Below are positions 3,813 through 40,969 of a DNA stretch of 49,260 bases, one piece after another. The notes beneath the pieces are model-generated. The model made no database searches and was not told where the DNA came from. It worked only from the letters and a program-made list of their open reading frames with translations. Both the position numbers and the translations under genes were made by a program. Positions within the stretch are counted from its first letter, which is position 1; each line of letters opens with the position of its first letter. This stretch comes from a virus: the IMG/VR virus record IMGVR_UViG_3300017963_000081; one strand, given 5' to 3'.

Positions 3813-4947
3813 GACAAGCTTGCTCGGGCCGCCCAAAACTGCTGGATACCGTCCTGCTGTTGCGGGGTACTATGCATTGTACGTCCACCGAAAGCCGGTT
3901 TGGACGCTGGGGTACGTCGAGCTGATGCTTTCCGATCCGCGGATTCGGTTCGGTCTCCGCCTGATCAAAGGACCTCTCTTGGCGAACCTCCGGTATGAGG
4001 TGAAATGCCGCCGCCAGGACGTAGGGCAATTCATCGACGCGAACTTGACCCGATTCATCCAAAACAGTGCGATGAAAGCCCTCCGGGCAATTGAGTGGGG
4101 GTACGTGGGGCACGAGGTGCTCTATCGCGTTGACGAGCGAAACCGGATTGCGTTTGATACGCTGAAATACATCCATCCCCGCGACGTAAAGCCGCTCGTT
4201 CTGGCAGACGAGATTGCTTCCGCGTCCGTTCAAATCCACGGGGGTTCTCGCGGAAAGGTCTACTTGAACGGTCCCAAGCTGTTTTGGCACATCCACGAAC
4301 GTGAGTACGATCCCTACTTCGGTTGCTCCCGGCTCAAGGGAACCTTCGATCCCTGGTGGGACATCTACAGCGATGGCGGAGCCAAAGACGCAAGGCGTCT
4401 CTACTTCTACAAATACCTCTACTCCGGGGACGTGCTGTATTATCCTCCAGAGGATGGAACGACAAACGTAGAGGGGCAGTCGCAATCGAACCGCGAGCTG
4501 GCGCTTGAGATTGTCAACAAGCGACGGACAGGTGGAACCCTTGTTCTTCCCAACACGGTTGACCCGGATACAAATCAGCGGTTATGGGAAATTTCGGCGG
4601 GGACGTCCACAATTCCGTCGGCGGATATTCGTGAAGTCATCGCAGATTTGAAGGATGAAGAGTGGGAGGGTATGGGAATCCCTCCCGAAGTTGCACGCGC
4701 CGAAGGCACGGGGGCGTTTGCGGGTCGGCGCGTTCCGCAGCAAGCATTTTTCTCGATCTTGCAGGAGTTGGCATTTTGGTTAGTCACCGACACTGATCGC
4801 CAAATAATCAAGCCGTTGGTCAACATGAACTTTGGCAATGTTCCGTACGAAATTGAAACGTTGCCGCTACTCCGCGAGTCGGAGACGCCAGGAGAAGAAG
4901 CTGTCCCCGTGGAACCGGAAGAACACGTTCAAGTCGAAGCAACCTAG
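3802..4947 (+). CDS. Putative portal protein, 381 aa
   Basis: The C-terminal stretch EWEGMGIPPEVARAEGTGAFAGRRVPQQAFFSILQELAFWLV and the preceding RRTGGTLVLPNTVDPDTNQRLWEI resemble portal stem/wing regions. This is my recognition only, and the protein is small for a portal. Confidence 0.45.
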   Translation: MITKTSLLGPPKTAGYRPAVAGYYALYVHRKPVWTLGYVELMLSDPRIRFGLRLIKGPLLANLRYEVKCRRQDVGQFIDANLTRFIQNSAMKALRAIEWGYVGHEVLYRVDERNRIAFDTLKYIHPRDVKPLVLADEIASASVQIHGGSRGKVYLNGPKLFWHIHEREYDPYFGCSRLKGTFDPWWDIYSDGGAKDARRLYFYKYLYSGDVLYYPPEDGTTNVEGQSQSNRELALEIVNKRRTGGTLVLPNTVDPDTNQRLWEISAGTSTIPSADIREVIADLKDEEWEGMGIPPEVARAEGTGAFAGRRVPQQAFFSILQELAFWLVTDTDRQIIKPLVNMNFGNVPYEIETLPLLRESETPGEEAVPVEPEEHVQVEAT

Positions 4948-4964
4948 TTTCGCCGGGGTACATC

Positions 4965-5402
4965 ATGTGGGATGAAATTAAAGGACACCTAATACCTTGG
5001 GTGTTGGCTGTGGTCACCGCGCTGACAACTTGGCTTACACATCGAGCATGGAAACTGATTTCCTGGAAAGAAAAGATAGATAGCGACTTTGCCCGCGTCC
5101 GGGACAAAGTTTCTGTTGACCACGACCGGATCTCTGATCTGTTGAGGTGGGCGGAAGTGGCAAAACAAACCGATCAACGCCACGAAGAAGTTATCCGGCA
5201 TGTGGTTGATCTGCAATCGACACAAACCACACAACTCGTTCGGATGGAAACATCGTTGGAAGGCATTCGCGATACGCTGGAAAGGTACGTTTCAACGCAA
5301 AACGGTAGTTTGGCCTCCGTAAAGAATGAGCTGTCTGAAATTCGATCCAACTGCATGGCCCACCTGCTGAGTCTGGAAAAGAAAAGGAAAGAGTCAAGCT
5401 GA
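4965..5402 (+). CDS. Membrane-anchored coiled-coil protein, 145 aa (holin/spanin-like candidate)
   Basis: N-terminal hydrophobic helix HLIPWVLAVVTALTTWLTH followed by a long heptad-like region. Confidence 0.5.
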   Translation: MWDEIKGHLIPWVLAVVTALTTWLTHRAWKLISWKEKIDSDFARVRDKVSVDHDRISDLLRWAEVAKQTDQRHEEVIRHVVDLQSTQTTQLVRMETSLEGIRDTLERYVSTQNGSLASVKNELSEIRSNCMAHLLSLEKKRKESS

Positions 5403-5785: not shown

Positions 5786-5837
5786 GTTTTCTCTCCAGAG
5801 ATCCCGGCGGGAACTTCAAAAATAGACAGGTGTCACA
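5786..5837 (+). promoter_or_regulatory. Conserved intergenic module, copy 1
   Basis: gTTTTCTCTCCAGagaTCCCggcGGGAacTTCAAAAATaGACAggTGTCacaATG. Confidence 0.8.
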
Positions 5838-5972
5838 ATGCCGTTGACAAAGAAAGGACGAAAGGTCATGCGGGCGATGCGTCGTCAGTATGGCTCTTCC
5901 AAAGGAAAGCGGGTATTCTACGCTTCTGCGAACAAAGGAACCATCAAAGGCGTTCATAAGAAACGTGGTTAA
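5838..5972 (+). CDS. Small basic protein, 44 aa (MPLTKKGRKVMRAMRRQYGSSKGKRVFYASANKGTIKGVHKKRG)
   Basis: Below the ORF-track cutoff. ATG lies directly after motif copy 1, and the stop overlaps the 1035-aa gene start (TAATG). Confidence 0.55.
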   Translation: MPLTKKGRKVMRAMRRQYGSSKGKRVFYASANKGTIKGVHKKRG

Positions 5973-21468: not shown

Positions 21469-21536
21469 TCTGTTTTCTCTCCAGTAGTCCCGGTGGGACA
21501 CTCAAAATTCTACAACTGTATAGAAAGGGTTCGACA
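21469..21536 (+). promoter_or_regulatory. Conserved intergenic module, copy 3
   Basis: tctgTTTTCTCTCCAGtaGTCCCggtGGGACacTCAAAATtcTACAacTGTAtagaaagggttcgacaATG. Confidence 0.8.
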
Positions 21537-22127
21537 ATGGCAAAGAAGAAAGCTTCAGGCCGTGCAGCAAGTACCGCTCGCGCTTCCCGCAAGACTGCGA
21601 AGGGTGTCGCAGCGAAGAAAGCCCCCGTCAAGAAGAAGGCGTCTTCAGGTGGCAAGACGGAGGGGACCTTGTCCTGGAAACAATACAAGGAGAACACCAA
21701 GGTTGATTGGGGCGTGACGACACGGCGTGCCAAGAGTATGGCGGGACAAACCAGTCTCGTCGAGGGGACCTATCCCGCGAAGTTGATTGATGCGAAGCTG
21801 CGCAACAGCTTTCGGACGAAAGGCGTCCTTGCTCTGGAAATGACCTTTGCGGTGACGGATGGGGAGTACGAGGGCGAGGTGGTCAGCACAGTTGACGACA
21901 TTGACCCTACCCGTACGCTTAGCGCGAATACCGACGCTACCCCTTATGACATTCTGATCCAACACATCGGCCAATTGGGGTACGAAGTTTCTGAAGATCC
22001 CGACTTTGATGAAGTCATTGGGATGTTGAAGGCGGACCAGCCCGAAGCTGAGATCGACATCGTGATTGGTGACACGGGACGTGCTTACGTTCGGCGCATA
22101 CGTGGCGTGGAGGAAGAGGAAGAGTAG
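21537..22127 (+). CDS. DUF669-like protein (ssDNA-binding candidate), 196 aa, with an H1-like basic N-tail and an acidic C-terminus (EEEEE)
   Basis: Starts right after motif copy 3. The ORF-track extension to 21222 was rejected because it runs through the ERF 3' end and the motif. The acidic tail is typical of phage SSBs. Confidence 0.5.
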   Translation: MAKKKASGRAASTARASRKTAKGVAAKKAPVKKKASSGGKTEGTLSWKQYKENTKVDWGVTTRRAKSMAGQTSLVEGTYPAKLIDAKLRNSFRTKGVLALEMTFAVTDGEYEGEVVSTVDDIDPTRTLSANTDATPYDILIQHIGQLGYEVSEDPDFDEVIGMLKADQPEAEIDIVIGDTGRAYVRRIRGVEEEEE

Positions 22128-27129: not shown

Positions 27130-27309
27130 ATGGGACGTGTAACAGGAGCGGCAAGAGGCGGCAGGGCAGCTCCGACTGCTCGACAACTTCGAGCGCAGCA
27201 AGCGGTGACGCGACGGATGAACCGGGGAGCCCTCGGAGCCGCCGAAAATGCGGCAGCGGTAACACGCGCTCCGAGACGTACACCGCGAGCGCGAGGTGGC
27301 CGCCGATAG
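27130..27309 (+). CDS. Small arginine-rich protein, 59 aa
   Basis: GGAGGGAG RBS and an ATG immediately after motif copy 5. Sequence MGRVTGAARGGRAAPTARQLRAQQAVTRRMNRG...RAPRRTPRARGGRR. Confidence 0.5.
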   Translation: MGRVTGAARGGRAAPTARQLRAQQAVTRRMNRGALGAAENAAAVTRAPRRTPRARGGRR

Positions 27310-36308: not shown

Positions 36309-36518
36309 TTAACCGCGCGGAGGTACTTTTCCCAGGTCCAAACCGTAAGGCCCTTTTAACCGCCGCGCCTGTCTTTGGTATCGTATCGACTTTGCCATTT
36401 GTTTTCGGACGTCAGAGCCTCGTTGGAATACACTTGGGTGCGTTCGTTTTGACGTCCCGTGTCGCGAAAACCTCTGGACAGTTTTGACAACGCTCCGACG
36501 TTTCAGTTTCTTGGCCAT
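36309..36518 (-). CDS. Small basic protein, 69 aa (MAKKLKRRS...)
   Basis: ORF track. Its SD (GGAGAG) is the reverse complement of the CTCTCC core of motif copy 7. Confidence 0.5.
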   Translation of the reverse strand: MAKKLKRRSVVKTVQRFSRHGTSKRTHPSVFQRGSDVRKQMAKSIRYQRQARRLKGPYGLDLGKVPPRG

Positions 36519-36572
36519 AGTTATCTCTCCAGTAGTCCTGACGGGACGTTCAAAAATAGACTAGTGTCTAAT
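36519..36572 (+). promoter_or_regulatory. Conserved intergenic module, copy 7. Orphan copy lying between two minus-strand genes.
   Basis: TTATCTCTCCAGtaGTCCTgacGGGACgTTCAAAAATAGACtagtGTCTaat. Confidence 0.75.
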
Positions 36573-36723
36573 AATTTTTCTTGTGGCGTCGCAGCGTTTC
36601 AGCAGCCCACTTCCGGAGCTTCTTCCCTTGCGGGGTTGTCTTGCTTGCTTTGCGCGCTTTCTTGACTTGGGTTTGAGAGTAGGCCGGAAGCCACTTCATG
36701 ATCTTGCGAAGTTTCTTTGCCAT
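36568..36723 (-). CDS. Small basic protein, 51 aa (MAKKLRKIMKWLPAYSQTQVKKARKASKTTPQGKKLRKWAAETLRRHKKNY)
   Basis: Below the ORF-track cutoff. ATG is 3 nt downstream of the DUF1580 gene stop. Shares the MAKKL(K/R) N-terminus with 36309..36518. Confidence 0.45.
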   Translation of the reverse strand: MAKKLRKIMKWLPAYSQTQVKKARKASKTTPQGKKLRKWAAETLRRHKKNY

Positions 36724-36726
36724 CGC

Positions 36727-36987
36727 TCAACTCCGTAACTGATCCTCTTGGTTCAACTTCAGGATGAACCGACCTATCGCCTCCTCCGACGTGTAGATCG
36801 TTCCTCCAACCCTTGCGGTTTCCAACCGGACGCCCCGGATGCCGCGTTTGGCCCATTTCCGGATGGTGTCAACGCTATGCGGTCCCCCCGGAATCTTTGC
36901 GTTAGCGTACCGCAATCGCACAAGCCGTTCTCTATTTGCGTCTAGCATTTTGTCCACTCCGTACCAGGTTTGTCCACTTTTATCCAT
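36727..36987 (-). CDS. DUF1580-type helix-turn-helix DNA-binding protein, 86 aa
   Basis: SVDTIRKWAKRGIRGVRLETARVGGTIYTSEEAIGRFI matches the G.RLE...VGG...TS.EA..RF signature I associate with planctomycete DUF1580 proteins. Confidence 0.6.
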   Translation of the reverse strand: MDKSGQTWYGVDKMLDANRERLVRLRYANAKIPGGPHSVDTIRKWAKRGIRGVRLETARVGGTIYTSEEAIGRFILKLNQEDQLRS

Positions 36988-37075
36988 TTTATCCTACTTT
37001 TTCCGCCCGTCCTAGACGTTGTAAAGGGGGATTGCCGAGGGGATTTCTGGTAGGATTCGGGCGGAGGCCGAGATC

Positions 37076-37207
37076 ATGATGGGAAAAACGATGCGTCGTC
37101 GGATGCGGAAACGGGTTCGAATGACGCCGAAATTCAAGCCGCCCGCTGGCGGCAGCGCTCTTCAGCGACCGGTATCGACCCGTCGCCAAATCGGTCGGAG
37201 GATGTGA
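37076..37207 (+). CDS. Small Arg/Lys-rich protein 1 of a tandem trio, 43 aa (MMGKTMRRRMRKRVRMTPKFKPPAGGSALQRPVSTRRQIGRRM)
   Basis: Below the ORF-track cutoff. GGAGG RBS. The stop overlaps the next start (TGATG). Confidence 0.45.
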   Translation: MMGKTMRRRMRKRVRMTPKFKPPAGGSALQRPVSTRRQIGRRM

Positions 37208-37359
37208 TGTTGCGTGGAAGACCTGTCTCGATGAAAACTGCTAAGAAGTTAGCTCGTCGAATGCCTGGTGGCGTTTCGGCAGTAACGCTTCGAAAGCGAC
37301 TCAATGCAAAGCCGAAGAATACGCGGAGAGCTGCAGCGCTTAAAGCGATGAAGGGTTAG
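37207..37359 (+). CDS. Small Arg/Lys-rich protein 2, 50 aa (MLRGRPVSMKTAKKLARRMPGGVSAVTLRKRLNAKPKNTRRAAALKAMKG)
   Basis: Preceded by TCGGAGGATGTGATG, the same 15-mer that precedes protein 3. Confidence 0.45.
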   Translation: MLRGRPVSMKTAKKLARRMPGGVSAVTLRKRLNAKPKNTRRAAALKAMKG

Positions 37360-37375
37360 TTGATCGGAGGATGTG

Positions 37376-37513
37376 ATGGGCGGAATGGCGATGAAACCGA
37401 AGACGAAGACCTTGCTCCGTCACGGTCAGCGTCGCAAGAAGTTCAGCCGAACGACTCGGGGTCAAATCGCCAGACTTCTCAAAGAATCGCGGAGACGCCA
37501 GAAGGGTTATTAA
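37376..37513 (+). CDS. Small Arg/Lys-rich protein 3, 45 aa (MGGMAMKPKTKTLLRHGQRRKKFSRTTRGQIARLLKESRRRQKGY)
   Basis: Preceded by TCGGAGGATGTGATG. Stop lies 1 nt before the GTG start of the scaffold/protease gene. Confidence 0.45.
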   Translation: MGGMAMKPKTKTLLRHGQRRKKFSRTTRGQIARLLKESRRRQKGY

Positions 37514-37514
37514 C

Positions 37515-38846
37515 GTGCCGTTCTTCGACAAGCAAATCTTGAAGCCTGGAACCTACAACGTCCCCGCCCCTGATGGGACGATGCAAAAGGTCCACCTCAG
37601 CGCGGAACGGTTCAAGCGGTGGGTTGACAACTTCAAGAAAATGGCCGCCGCAGGTCTAAACATCCCCGCCCCGTGGCGACACGACGAGAAAGCGATTCCT
37701 CTCCGGTTGTCGGCAGACCAGGGCGATACCGACGCTTTCCAGAACGGTGGTTTCTGGCGAGACCTTTGGGTGGACAACAACGGAACCCTTCACGGTCGCG
37801 TGGAGGTTCCGGATGAAGAGACCGCGAAGCAGAAGATCGGCAAGACCGTCCGCGAGGTCTCTCCGCTGGTCAAAGGGAAGTGGGCCGACGGAGCGGGGAA
37901 CGAATACGAGGATGCGATCACGCACATCGCGTTGGTCACGCATCCGGTGGCACAAGCTCAGGAGAACTTCACGCCTATCGCTGCGTCGCTTGCTTTCTCC
38001 CACTCGCAACTGCTGGTAGCAGACGAGGAGTTGGTGCCGCCCGAGTTGCAATTTCAAGTCGTGCAGGAACCCGCAACAGAAATGCCGGAGCCGACATCCG
38101 CATCCAACGCAACTGTCCAGGATGCGGTTGGGGTGCTCCGCGAGCTGGGGCTTAACCTGCCGGACGATACTACCCCGGAGAACATTCTGGAAAGGATAGT
38201 CACTGCGGGTCTTGCCCTTCGAAGTGAACGGGAACGATCACCCGATACGAACGCACCCCCAGTGGGCGCGACAGAGCCGAGAGGTCCAATCACGATGAGT
38301 CAACAGAATCAGACCGTACCATCCCCATCGTCGTCGGCGGGGCCGAACGCGCAGGCGGCCCCTCCGACTTCACCTCCCGCAACGGTCGCGTTGTCGCAAG
38401 AGCATCAAGCCGCTCTGAACTTCGCGAGCAAGGTAGGTCGACAGATGTACATTGACCGGATTGACAAGCTGGTCAATTCGGGACGGATCACGCCGGACTA
38501 CGCCAACAAGACGTTGTCCCCCTACCTGAGCGACTTGCGGCTGTCGTTTGACGCGGATGGCAACCCAATGTCCGGCGAGCTGGACAAGCTATTGCTTGCC
38601 CTGGAAGCATTGCCGCAGAACCAAGTGATCGGTGGATCGGTTGTCTCCGGGATCCGCAGCAACGGTCAGCAGATGTTTTCGTTGGCAACGCAACCGACCG
38701 AAGTTCCCAACGAACACTTGTGGCGGGACAACACGGCGGAGCCGTCCGAAGACGAAGCGATTGACATTGTCAATCAGCAGTTTCAGAACACCGGTCGCAG
38801 CCACTTTATCCGGGGTCCGCAACGCATGACCGGACGTCCGGTTTAA
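37515..38846 (+). CDS. Head maturation protease / scaffolding protein candidate, 443 aa
   Basis: The N-terminus FFDKQILKPGTYNVPAPDGTMQKVHLSAERFKRWVDNFKKM...IPAPWRHD resembles Mu gpI/DUF2213-type proteins. The Pro/Ala/Ser-rich middle, helical C-terminus and position upstream of the decoration and capsid genes fit. Confidence 0.45.
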   Translation: MPFFDKQILKPGTYNVPAPDGTMQKVHLSAERFKRWVDNFKKMAAAGLNIPAPWRHDEKAIPLRLSADQGDTDAFQNGGFWRDLWVDNNGTLHGRVEVPDEETAKQKIGKTVREVSPLVKGKWADGAGNEYEDAITHIALVTHPVAQAQENFTPIAASLAFSHSQLLVADEELVPPELQFQVVQEPATEMPEPTSASNATVQDAVGVLRELGLNLPDDTTPENILERIVTAGLALRSERERSPDTNAPPVGATEPRGPITMSQQNQTVPSPSSSAGPNAQAAPPTSPPATVALSQEHQAALNFASKVGRQMYIDRIDKLVNSGRITPDYANKTLSPYLSDLRLSFDADGNPMSGELDKLLLALEALPQNQVIGGSVVSGIRSNGQQMFSLATQPTEVPNEHLWRDNTAEPSEDEAIDIVNQQFQNTGRSHFIRGPQRMTGRPV

Positions 38847-38917: not shown

Positions 38918-39769
38918 ATGGGTTTCGACTACACAGCATTCGCCTCCATTCCCGGAATCGAGGACGTCCGACAGACCGTCGAGTCTGAAATCTTCTGGGG
39001 CCCGTTCGAGTACAACCGTGCGTTCATCGTCCCCTGCTTCATTGACGCAAGCGGGACGCGGGACACCGGCGGCAGCCCGACCACCTTGATCCGCGCCGGA
39101 ATGCTAATGGGTCAAATCCGGTCCAGCAAACTGCTGGTCGAGTGGAACCCTGCGGGGACCGATGGGTCGGAAGAAATTTACGGCCCGCTTCTCTACTCCC
39201 AGCAAACGCAACTCCAAGGAACCGACAAAGACCGTTGGTTTGGATTCTGCGCGGTGGGTGGAAATGTCAAAGCTGCCAAGCTGCTTGTTCCTGGCGCTAG
39301 CTCCGCAGGGATCGACGGGTCCGCGTACGAGTACGAAGTGGTTCGCCAGATGGCCGGTCGATTCAACTTCGACGGTCTCTACAACGTGTACAAAACGTCA
39401 GCACTGTACGGTGGCTGGCGAAAAGTCGTTGCGAAGACCGCTGACTACACGTTGACGGTTGACGACACCGGGTGCATTTTCACCAACACCGGCGAAACCG
39501 ATCTGCTGACATTGACTCTGCCTGCGGTTGCCAACAACCGAGGTCTTCGGTACGGCGTCTACGTCACCAACGATGCTGGAATCTCCATCGCGTCTGCTGC
39601 GGGGGACGACATCGTATGCGACAACGATGCCGCCGCAGATTCGGTTACGGTTAGCACGACCGGGAAGTGTATCGGAACGTTCATCGAAATCCTCGGAGTT
39701 GGCGGCTCCGCTTGGTACACGATTACGCATCTCGCCGCCAGTGATCATGTGATTACCATCGCGACGTAA
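38918..39769 (+). CDS. Head decoration-like protein, 283 aa
   Basis: The N-terminal part (TLIRAGMLMGQIRSSKLLVEWNPAGTDGSEEIYGPLLY) resembles gpD-type decoration proteins. Gene lies immediately upstream of the gpE-like capsid gene. Confidence 0.5.
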   Translation: MGFDYTAFASIPGIEDVRQTVESEIFWGPFEYNRAFIVPCFIDASGTRDTGGSPTTLIRAGMLMGQIRSSKLLVEWNPAGTDGSEEIYGPLLYSQQTQLQGTDKDRWFGFCAVGGNVKAAKLLVPGASSAGIDGSAYEYEVVRQMAGRFNFDGLYNVYKTSALYGGWRKVVAKTADYTLTVDDTGCIFTNTGETDLLTLTLPAVANNRGLRYGVYVTNDAGISIASAAGDDIVCDNDAAADSVTVSTTGKCIGTFIEILGVGGSAWYTITHLAASDHVITIAT

Positions 39770-39817: not shown

Positions 39818-40969
39818 ATGGCCACGAATGTAGCACTCCACCAGCTTCTGGGGTCGACCACGGTTACCCGTGCGATTAGCCAGATCAAGACGCCCATGTC
39901 GCGTCTTCAGGATTTCTTCGGCGCGGGGCCGGGCGGACCCAATACCAATCAAGTCGGCGGGAAGAACTTCGGTTGGGACATCTTCGACCGGACGCGGAGC
40001 ATTGCCACGGGACGCCCGCCAGGGACCGGACCCGCAACCATCGCACCGCAAGTGGTCGGTCACGTCTCCGCCGCCGCTTACCGCGCTCACGAGAAGATCA
40101 CCCTGCTGGAGGAAAGAATCTTCCGAACCCGCCCGATTGGAGGTCAGTGGGGTGAAGTGGACGTCCGGGGTCAAGCGTACGTCACCCGTCAAGAGCAGTA
40201 CATCGCGCAGCGATTTCGCAACAGTCGTGAGTTGATGTTGGCCGCCATGCTTCGCGGTCAGCTCTATCTTACGATCAACGGTGACGATCTTGTCCCGACG
40301 CTCGCAAGTGGCGACGTTACGATTGACTTCAAAATCCCTGCCGGTAACAAGAGCCAGCTCGACCTTACCGGGGCGGGGAGCATTATCGGGACGTCGTGGG
40401 ACACCGACGCCGACACTGACGGGACGTACGAAGGAACCATCGTTGACGACTGTCTCGATATCAACAGCGCGTTCGAGCAGCTCCACGGTTATCCCCTCCG
40501 CCACGTCTGGGTCAACAGTACCCTCATGAAATACGTGATGAACACCGCCCAACTTCAGAACGTGGCAGGGACCGCGAACCGGGTATTCACGTTGTTTCAG
40601 CCGACGGGGTTGACAAACGACGACGGCGTTGAGGACACCGGTTTCAACGTCGTTTTCGAAGCGATGCCGTGGCTGACGTGGCACGTCTACGACGGCGGCT
40701 TGGACGTCAATGGAACGTTCACCAAACTGATCGCAGATAGCACTGCGATTTTCATGCCTGACCCCGATCCTAACTGGTTCGAAATGCTGGAAGGGTCGGA
40801 AGTGGTCGCGGAAAACGTCATGGATGCGGGGAACGAACGGTTCGGCTTGCAAGCTTGGACGACGCGGGTGATCGACCCCGCGGGGTTCGACCTGAAAGCG
40901 TTGGACGTCTGCTTGCCGGCCCTTTACATTCCGAAGTGCATCGCGTATGGGACGGTGATTTTTACGTAA
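39818..40969 (+). CDS. Major capsid protein, lambda gpE-like family, 383 aa
   Basis: Length, position, and N- and C-terminal patterns (...ELMLAAMLRGQLYL..., ...VYDGGLDVNGTF...FMPDPDP..., ...LPALYIPKCIAYGTV) are typical of Phage_cap_E proteins. Confidence 0.75.
   Translation: MATNVALHQLLGSTTVTRAISQIKTPMSRLQDFFGAGPGGPNTNQVGGKNFGWDIFDRTRSIATGRPPGTGPATIAPQVVGHVSAAAYRAHEKITLLEERIFRTRPIGGQWGEVDVRGQAYVTRQEQYIAQRFRNSRELMLAAMLRGQLYLTINGDDLVPTLASGDVTIDFKIPAGNKSQLDLTGAGSIIGTSWDTDADTDGTYEGTIVDDCLDINSAFEQLHGYPLRHVWVNSTLMKYVMNTAQLQNVAGTANRVFTLFQPTGLTNDDGVEDTGFNVVFEAMPWLTWHVYDGGLDVNGTFTKLIADSTAIFMPDPDPNWFEMLEGSEVVAENVMDAGNERFGLQAWTTRVIDPAGFDLKALDVCLPALYIPKCIAYGTVIFT

What the first reader, a model, noticed from the sequence alone, without database searches (positions are those of the whole stretch)
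37076..37513. Tandem trio of protamine-like (Arg/Lys-rich) mini-genes at the head of the capsid operon
Three back-to-back ORFs of 43, 50 and 45 codons, all below the ORF-track cutoff, encode peptides with roughly one third K+R. Examples are MMGKTMRRRMRKRVRM..., ...KTAKKLARRM...RKRLNAKPKNTRR... and ...KPKTKTLLRHGQRRKKFSR...RRRQKGY.

Genes 2 and 3 are each preceded by the identical 15-mer TCGGAGGATGTGATG. In gene 3 the ATG-TGA inside that 15-mer forms a start-stop mini-ORF overlapping the real start. This suggests duplication and termination-reinitiation coupling.

The trio ends 1 nt before the protease/scaffold gene, so it belongs to the head morphogenesis unit. That makes packaged, DNA-condensing internal head peptides a reasonable guess. 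RNA-binding arginine-rich motifs (lambda N or Tat type) acting on the conserved hairpin module are the competing idea.
Basis: partly seen in the sequence, partly recalled or inferred. Interest (0 to 1): 0.62.

Follow-up and report, generated by a model that had tools for sequence, protein, structure and literature searches.

The report
Small basic proteins in phage head operon
Three tiny, strongly positively charged genes sit just before the capsid protease-scaffold gene of an uncultured 49-kb phage; at least the third belongs to a previously undescribed, fast-changing family that related phages carry in tandem sets inside their head-assembly genes, probably as nucleic-acid-binding, possibly packaged, proteins.

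Summary
Three tiled ORFs (43, 50 and 45 aa; K+R 32-36%, one acidic residue in 138) fill the gap before the gene at 37515. Each has GGAGG 5-8 nt before its ATG, and an exact 15-mer is repeated at the starts of ORF2 and ORF3.

Their combined charge (+46) exceeds every one of 2000 dinucleotide shuffles, and the region has no unusual RNA fold.

ORF3 is a real gene. It has homologues in related phages (L009, L006). A profile built only from relatives' small ORFs picks it, and the minus-strand 51-aa ORF, out of 994 six-frame segments.

ORF1 and ORF2 have no detectable homologues. They rest on ribosome-binding sites, coupling and charge only.

About 9 of 15 lineages sharing the neighbouring gene carry sets of up to seven such ORFs next to scaffold or capsid genes. 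Copies vary even between strains that are over 99.9% identical. Many share an N-terminal MKxxT(K/R)xL motif kept through synonymous codon changes.

The neighbour is an assemblin-type protease-scaffold fusion.

The family matches nothing in Pfam, PHROGs, NCBIfam, PDB or 1.84 billion proteins.

Function is inferred: charge-driven nucleic-acid binding, most likely T4-internal-protein-like packaged cargo (about 0.4). No expression or virion data were available.

The parts
37063..37067 (+). GGAGG ribosome-binding site of ORF1, 8 nt before the ATG
37076..37207 (+). ORF1, 43 aa, K+R 0.35, no acidic residue. No homologue was detected. Its stop overlaps ORF2's ATG (TGATG).
37195..37209 (+). 15-mer copy 1: GGAGG, ORF1's last codon plus stop, and ORF2's ATG
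37207..37359 (+). ORF2, 50 aa (51 aa from GTG 37204), K+R 0.32, no acidic residue. No homologue was detected.
37364..37378 (+). 15-mer copy 2: GGAGG, relic ATG-TGA, and ORF3's ATG
37376..37513 (+). ORF3, 45 aa. It is a member of an orphan family of small basic helical-hairpin proteins with the motif MKPKTKTLL. It is already called as a gene in the public collection (P0020).
37515..38846 (+). Assemblin-fold prohead protease (about residues 1-155; H56, S116, H137 and H143 invariant) fused to a helical scaffolding region
38918..39769 (+). Head-decoration-like protein (weak HDPD match)
39818..40969 (+). Major capsid protein (Phage_cap_E)
36568..36723 (-). 51-aa basic ORF (MAKKLRK...) of the same family as ORF3
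36309..36518 (-). 69-aa basic ORF (MAKKLKR...), paralogue of the 51-aa ORF
36727..36987 (-). DUF1580 gene, divergent from the trio
36523..36539 (+). Nearest copy of the phage's repeated CTCTCCAG leader box, 550 nt upstream of ORF1 and antisense to the two minus-strand genes

Best explanation
Shown:
- The trio opens the plus-strand head-assembly block of an uncultured phage.
- The three ORFs are tiled, each has a strong ribosome-binding site, and they carry far more positive charge than the DNA composition explains.
- ORF3 belongs to an orphan family of proteins of about 45-80 aa. AlphaFold predicts a helix-turn-helix hairpin for it.
- Related phages carry this family, and unrelated but equally basic mini-proteins, in tandem sets beside their protease-scaffold, decoration and capsid genes.
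- The sets turn over quickly. Many members keep an N-terminal MKxxT(K/R)xL motif at protein level.

Inferred:
- All three ORFs are translated from the late head transcript. ORF1 to ORF2 is coupled through the TGATG overlap, and ORF3 to the protease-scaffold gene through a 1-nt gap.
- They bind nucleic acid through charge.
- Most likely they are loaded into the procapsid, with the conserved N-terminus as the loading or docking element, and end up with the packaged DNA. There they would act as counter-ions and/or be ejected with it. This is how T4 internal proteins work, and it resembles the phiX174 J and adenovirus VII/mu core proteins.
- Tandem copies in the most strongly expressed operon would supply the hundreds of molecules such a role needs.
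For: - Gene anatomy and ribosome-binding sites.
- Frame-specific charge: +46, against a shuffle maximum of 39.
- No special RNA fold (z = -0.40) and no Rfam match.
- ORF3 against the L009 48-aa ORF: 39% identity, pairwise E = 5e-7, shuffle z about 8.
- A profile built from 30 non-window ORFs ranks ORF3 (E = 7.7e-5) and the 51-aa ORF (E = 1.2e-4) first among 994 window segments.
- Sets beside head genes occur in L004, L006, L009, L012, L019, L029 and L030.
- In the complete 53-kb relative, six of the eight small basic ORFs counted lie directly after the capsid gene.
- Turnover: a 238-bp cassette difference and an in-frame 48-nt change between strains over 99.9% identical. L006 and L030 are 72-76% identical in head genes but show no similarity in the small-ORF regions.
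- The N-terminal motif is in 9 of 40 ORFs, against 0.13 expected. It is encoded by different synonymous codons.
- Hairpin model of ORF3: pLDDT 77.
- The neighbour's best fold matches are T4 gp21 and the herpesvirus proteases.
- For T4, about 1000 internal protein molecules, highly diverse apart from a conserved capsid-targeting sequence, are reported in PMC3012670.
Against: - There are no expression, proteome or virion data.
- ORF1 and ORF2 have no homologue, and gene callers did not call them on the identical contig.
- Codon statistics are neutral.
- There is no acidic cleavage-type motif after the N-terminal tag, unlike the T4 targeting sequence.
- Family members also lie outside the head operon: two on the minus strand beside DUF1580, and other basic mini-ORFs before a 1035-aa gene and a ParB-like gene.
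- Five informative relatives show no such ORFs near their head genes.
- Rapid turnover fits a conflict or accessory role as well as it fits a structural one.
Confidence: 0.4

Rival explanations
1. The genes are real, but their products are not packaged. They are late-expressed intracellular accessory proteins that bind host or phage nucleic acid or ribosomes: RNA chaperones, nucleoid or translation modifiers, or anti-defence factors. They sit in variable slots of the head operon the way morons do.
For: - Very fast gain, loss and replacement between close relatives.
- Members lie outside the head operon in the window.
- The sets are absent from several relatives.
- The basic helical hairpin is a generic nucleic-acid binder.
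Against: - The sets are strongly concentrated beside scaffold and capsid genes in at least seven lineages.
- A conserved N-terminal tag on otherwise divergent bodies is the pattern of cargo targeting.
- There is no match to any ribosomal or known regulator family.
Confidence: 0.3
2. Only ORF3 is a functional gene. ORF1 and ORF2 are chance or decaying ORFs, or mere upstream reading frames whose translation only delivers ribosomes to the downstream genes.
For: - No homologues were found for ORF1 or ORF2.
- They were not called on the identical contig.
- Codon scores are -5.7 and -1.2 bits, against 10 +/- 5 for true genes.
- ORFs of this size are common in the region.
Against: - Each has GGAGG at 5-8 nt and a stop-start overlap.
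- Each ORF's charge is reached by only about 1% of shuffles.
- There are no acidic residues in 93 codons.
- Relatives' sets also hold many members without homologues among those compared.
Confidence: 0.18
3. The peptides are arginine-rich-motif RNA binders of the lambda N or Tat type. They would act on the phage's repeated box-plus-hairpin leader module to control transcription or translation.
For: - ORF1's N-terminus (MMGKTMRRRMRKRVRM) looks like an arginine-rich motif.
- In the window, three other small basic ORFs lie directly behind module copies, at 5789, 21475 and 27058.
Against: - No module copy lies next to the trio; the nearest is 550 nt upstream.
- The exact 12-mer box is absent from every relative locus that carries the protein family.
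- Sets of up to seven different copies are hard to explain for one RNA target.
- The region itself is not unusually structured.
Confidence: 0.07

Closest known systems
Bacteriophage T4 internal proteins IPI, IPII and IPIII with their capsid-targeting sequence
   Same: - Small basic proteins in highly diverse, polymorphic sets that share only a short conserved N-terminal leader.
- An assemblin-fold prohead protease is present.
- The proposed role is co-packaging with DNA, charge balance and ejection (PMC3012670).
   Different: - No sequence homology.
- No Leu/Ile-x-Glu type cleavage site after the leader; the trio has almost no acidic residues.
- The proteins are much smaller (43-80 aa).
- They are arranged in tandem inside the scaffold-capsid operon of a 49-kb phage.
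- Packaging is untested.
phiX174 protein J, adenovirus core proteins VII and mu, and baculovirus P6.9 (protamine-like packaged DNA binders)
   Same: Very small, strongly basic virus-encoded peptides that neutralise packaged DNA.
   Different: - Different virus realms and no homology.
- The trio is mixed Lys/Arg (R 16-26%), not protamine-level Arg.
- To my knowledge (not searched systematically) no tailed phage is known to use such peptides. One paper search for 'protamine-like' with phage terms returned only eukaryotic viruses.
Lambda N-type arginine-rich-motif antiterminators
   Same: A short basic N-terminal helix, and a phage genome with repeated leader hairpins.
   Different: - No adjacent hairpin site.
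- The family occurs in phages that lack the module.
- It occurs in multi-copy sets.
Small basic ribosomal proteins (bL34, bL35, bS21), some of which phages encode
   Same: Similar size and charge, and a superficial resemblance in motifs by eye.
   Different: No Pfam or NCBIfam match even at E = 10.

Membership tests
T4 internal protein / capsid-targeting-sequence system | Diverse small basic proteins sharing a conserved N-terminal leader | tested here: met
   MKxxT(K/R)xL is in 9 of 40 small ORFs from six lineages, including ORF3, against 0.13 expected. It is kept through synonymous changes. It is not seen in ORF1 or ORF2.
T4 internal protein / capsid-targeting-sequence system | The leader ends at a prohead-protease cleavage site (Leu/Ile-x-Glu in T4; from my own knowledge) | tested here: not met
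   ORF1 and ORF2 have no Asp or Glu at all. ORF3 has only E37.
T4 internal protein / capsid-targeting-sequence system | An assemblin-fold prohead protease encoded by the phage | tested here: met
   The top six Foldseek matches of the 443-aa neighbour are T4 gp21 (probability 0.93-0.98) and herpesvirus proteases. H56, S116 and H137 are invariant. E-values are weak (6e-3).
T4 internal protein / capsid-targeting-sequence system | Sequence homology to IPI, IPII or IPIII | tested here: not met
   PHROGs was searched with the trio and the 69-aa ORF, Pfam with 36 small ORFs and NCBIfam with the window's small ORFs. None gave a match.
T4 internal protein / capsid-targeting-sequence system | Physically present in the capsid and ejected with the DNA | not testable with these tools
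   The phage is uncultured and there is no proteome.
Protamine-like viral core proteins (adenovirus VII/mu, baculovirus P6.9, phiX174 J) | Homology or protamine-level arginine content | tested here: not met
   No family match. Arg is 16-26% and Lys 9-16%.
Lambda N-type arginine-rich-motif regulators | A cognate RNA hairpin site in the transcript next to, or regulated by, the gene | tested here: inconclusive
   The nearest module copy is at 36523, 550 nt upstream. The box is absent from relatives' loci. The trio region is not structured. Binding was not tested.
Ribosomal proteins bL34, bL35, bS21 | Match to the family profile | tested here: not met
   None of the 36 small ORFs hits a ribosomal family at E <= 10. 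NCBIfam gave nothing.

The most novel reading that the evidence does not exclude
A clade of uncultured tailed phages uses hypervariable tandem sets of 40-80-aa helical-hairpin proteins, each carrying +12 to +20 charge. An N-terminal MKxxT(K/R)xL tag would direct them into the procapsid built by an assemblin-type protease-scaffold fusion. There they would serve as protein counter-ions for the packaged genome and be injected with it. That would be a protamine-like, T4-internal-protein-like cargo system that arose independently in small phages.
Probability: 0.25. Interest if true: 0.72.

Novelty: new variant of a known kind. Interest (0 to 1): 0.5.

Why it matters
If the peptides are packaged, they would show that small tailed phages can balance genome charge with dedicated protein counter-ions. 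They would also give a second, independent example of a short N-terminal tag that loads diverse cargo into capsids, which would be useful for capsid-loading engineering and for reading phage 'dark matter'.

Even without a function, the result gives a recognisable signature for a class of very small genes that gene callers often miss. The signature is tiled, SD-led, acid-free basic ORFs next to head genes, many with an MKxxT(K/R)xL start. Here two of the three were not called on the identical contig.

Tried and rejected
- Whole-genome search: no genome is held for this window.
- INPHARED phage DNA search: no match.
- GTDB genomes searched for prophage relatives: none, so the host stays unknown. 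The DUF1580 gene is only a hint of Planctomycetota, from my own knowledge.
- Word-index protein searches: ORF3 found only itself and ORF2 found nothing.
- A profile of the ORF3 family against 1.84 billion proteins returned only the input members.
- IMG/VR scans: ORF2 found no relative.
- Pfam, PHROGs, NCBIfam and PDB sequence searches of the small ORFs: nothing.
- Foldseek of the ORF3 hairpin: nothing below E = 1.
- Codon-usage and synonymous-codon scores: uninformative, because codon bias is weak in this phage and the amino-acid composition is unusual.
- Structured-RNA reading: rejected.
- A resemblance to bL34 noticed by eye: rejected by profile search.
- An identical second contig (L024) offered no variation for dN/dS.

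Full report
**1. Observation**

The window is a complete contig of an uncultured phage. An identical 49.1-kb contig exists in another circular permutation, and no host genome is held.

Between the minus-strand DUF1580 gene (36727-36987) and the plus-strand gene at 37515 lies a 527-nt gap. Three ORFs tile it:
- ORF1, 37076-37207, 43 aa.
- ORF2, 37207-37359, 50 aa.
- ORF3, 37376-37513, 45 aa.

GGAGG lies 8, 5 and 5 nt before the three ATGs. The same motif precedes many large genes of this phage.

The 15-mer TCGGAGGATGTGATG occurs exactly twice in the window, at the starts of ORF2 and ORF3. In the first copy the ATG-TGA is ORF1's final Met codon plus its stop, and the stop overlaps ORF2's ATG. 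In the second copy it is a leftover start-stop pair with no spacer after GGAGG. I read it as a copied junction, not as a working mini-ORF.

ORF3's stop lies 1 nt before GTG 37515. The product read from that GTG has the conserved N-terminus of its homologues.

**2. Chance or genes?**

- ORFs of about 45 codons are common here; four others overlap the gap.
- Codon statistics cannot decide. The trio scores -5.7, -1.2 and +0.8 bits, against 10 +/- 5 for true 47-codon windows and -17 +/- 12 for off-frame windows. Synonymous bias in this phage is too weak to help.
- Charge is decisive at region level. The three frames carry +46 net charge over 138 residues with a single acidic residue. The best of six frames in 2000 dinucleotide-preserving shuffles averaged 23 and never exceeded 39. 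Each ORF alone is reached by about 1% of shuffles.
- The RNA fold of the region is ordinary (z = -0.40), and Rfam finds nothing.

**3. Relatives**

The 443-aa neighbour has 18 homologues at 31-44% identity, all from metagenomes. I fetched their contigs. The gene order protease-scaffold, decoration-like, Phage_cap_E capsid is conserved.

Small basic ORFs (K+R 0.25-0.38, D+E below 0.09) recur around these genes:

| Lineage | Small basic ORFs seen |
|---|---|
| L004 group | Six to seven upstream of the scaffold gene, one between scaffold and decoration |
| L006 | One or two upstream, six after the capsid gene |
| L030 | One upstream, two after the capsid gene |
| L009 | One upstream, one after the scaffold gene |
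| L012 | Three after the capsid gene |
| L019 | Six after the capsid gene |
| L029 | One after the scaffold gene |
| L022, L002 | Near a 471-aa gene (L022) and the terminase gene (L002) |

Five informative relatives (L001, L007, L008, L010, L028) show none in the stretch fetched. So roughly 9 of 15 informative lineages have them.

In the complete 53-kb relative, six of the eight small basic ORFs counted lie directly after the capsid gene.

**4. Homology**

- ORF3 aligns with the L009 48-aa ORF at 39% identity, pairwise E = 5e-7.
- Composition-preserving shuffles give z about 8 for that pair and 5-6 for ORF3 against L006:4390.
- At z >= 4 two clusters appear. Cluster A holds ORF3, the two minus-strand ORFs at 36568-36723 and 36309-36518, L006:4390, L009:3543 and two L019 ORFs. 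Cluster B holds L004/L003 paralogues, L019:7869 and L002:1220.
- A profile made only from the 30 non-window ORFs, searched against all 994 six-frame segments of the window, ranks ORF3 (E = 7.7e-5) and the 51-aa minus-strand ORF (E = 1.2e-4) first. ORF1 and ORF2 are not among the top 25.
- ORF1 and ORF2 have no partner above z = 2.9 and 2.2 and no hit elsewhere.

So ORF3 is a bona fide gene. It is also already called in the public protein collection. ORF1 and ORF2 are supported only by signals and composition.

**5. A shared N-terminal motif**

Both clusters share M-K-x-x-T-(K/R)-x-L at the N-terminus. It is present in 9 of 40 small ORFs from six lineages, against 0.13 expected from shuffles. 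The pattern was chosen after looking at the data.

The conserved residues are encoded by different synonymous codons. In L030, two paralogues sit at different places in the genome. Their sequences MKAGTKRLMRGL and MKPTTQRLMRGL differ by four synonymous changes and no replacement across RLMRGL, while the rest of the two proteins has diverged. The motif is therefore kept at protein level.

**6. Turnover**

- Strains over 99.9% identical differ by a 238-bp cassette that adds one ORF. They also differ by an in-frame 48-nt replacement that keeps the C-terminus of another ORF.
- L019 has a 67-nt repeat spanning an ORF end and the next start.
- L006 and L030 are 72-76% identical in the scaffold, decoration and capsid genes. 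They show no detectable similarity where the small ORFs lie.
- The window's 15-mer fits this pattern of junction-mediated duplication.

**7. Structure and the neighbouring gene**

AlphaFold2 with the cluster A alignment predicts that ORF3 forms helix 8-20, a turn, then helix 25-43 (mean pLDDT 77). Foldseek finds nothing meaningful for it.

The 443-aa neighbour has a confident beta-rich N-terminal domain of about 155 residues followed by helical segments. Its six best PDB fold matches are T4 gp21 and the HSV-1, pseudorabies and EBV proteases. E-values are weak (from 6e-3) but probabilities reach 0.93-0.98. H56, S116, H137 and H143 are invariant in 19 homologues. I read it as a protease-scaffold fusion. 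The catalytic residues were not checked by superposition.

**8. Known families**

The small ORFs match nothing in PHROGs, Pfam (at E <= 10), NCBIfam or PDB sequences. A profile of cluster A against 1.84 billion representative proteins returns only its own members. A resemblance to bL34 that I noticed by eye is therefore rejected.

**9. Mechanism**

Shown:
- Tiled, SD-led, acid-free basic ORFs at the head of the capsid operon.
- Family membership of ORF3.
- Recurrent, fast-changing sets beside head genes.
- A protein-level N-terminal tag.
- An adjacent assemblin-type protease-scaffold gene.

Inferred:
- Translation of all three ORFs.
- Charge-driven nucleic-acid binding.
- Most likely, loading into procapsids and residence with the packaged DNA. 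This would resemble the T4 internal proteins, which are reported as about 1000 molecules per head and highly diverse apart from a conserved capsid-targeting sequence (PMC3012670).

Against this reading:
- No cleavage-type acidic motif follows the tag.
- Family members lie outside the head operon in this very window: two on the minus strand, plus other basic mini-ORFs at 5838-5972 and 27130-27309.
- Several relatives lack the sets.
- No expression data could be obtained.

I put the packaged-cargo reading at about 0.4. A non-packaged nucleic-acid-binding accessory role gets about 0.3. 'Only ORF3 is functional' gets about 0.18. Arginine-rich-motif regulators of the leader module get about 0.07; the module is 550 nt away and its box is absent from relatives.

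**10. Verdict**

This is an undescribed orphan family and an undescribed gene arrangement. It works, at best guess, like a known kind of system, but it fails sequence and cleavage-site membership tests for that system. Interest is moderate (0.5), limited by the lack of any functional data and by the unproven status of ORF1 and ORF2.

Earlier notes of this scan on the same window mentioned the minus-strand MAKKL pair, the leader module and other Arg-rich mini-ORFs. I used them as leads and checked them in part.

Noticed in passing
window 36523-36539 (+): This is a plus-strand copy of the repeated CTCTCCAG leader box. It lies between the two minus-strand basic ORFs, 550 nt upstream of the trio. 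If it starts the head transcript, that RNA would run antisense through the 51-aa ORF and the DUF1580 gene before reaching ORF1. That would be a possible early/late switch.
   Followed up: partly
window 5838-5972 (+): A 44-aa basic ORF (MPLTKKGRKVMRAMRRQYGSSKGKRVFYASANKG...) lies directly behind a module copy (5789). Its stop overlaps the ATG of the 1035-aa gene. It has no family match and scores only weakly with the small-ORF profile (E = 0.29).
   Followed up: partly
window 37515-38846 (+): The 'scaffold' gene is an assemblin-fold protease domain fused to a helical scaffolding region, with H56, S116, H137 and H143 invariant. It has no Pfam, PHROG or PDB sequence match, so the family appears not to be catalogued.
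   Followed up: partly
L003 1995-2204 versus L004; L013 3137-3171 versus L004 4367-4449: Near-identical strains differ by one whole small-ORF cassette. They also differ by an in-frame 48-nt replacement inside the 64-aa ORF that lies between the scaffold and decoration genes.
   Followed up: partly
L019 7437-7503 and 7806-7872: A 67-nt direct repeat (84% identical) covers the end of one small ORF and the TAATG junction to the next. In the second copy the repeated part is read in a different frame, which suggests a frameshifted duplicate.
   Followed up: no
G001 (L025) 4862-4969 (-): A 35-aa Lys/Ala-rich, histone-H1-like ORF (MAKKKAAAKAKKSAKKGTKKKK...) with an AGGAG site lies in the complete 53-kb relative, far from its head genes.
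   Followed up: no
window 21493-21717 (+) and 27130-27309 (+): Two more Arg-rich ORFs (74 and 59 aa) lie directly behind module copies at 21475 and 27058. Neither is significantly similar to the ORF3 family.
   Followed up: partly
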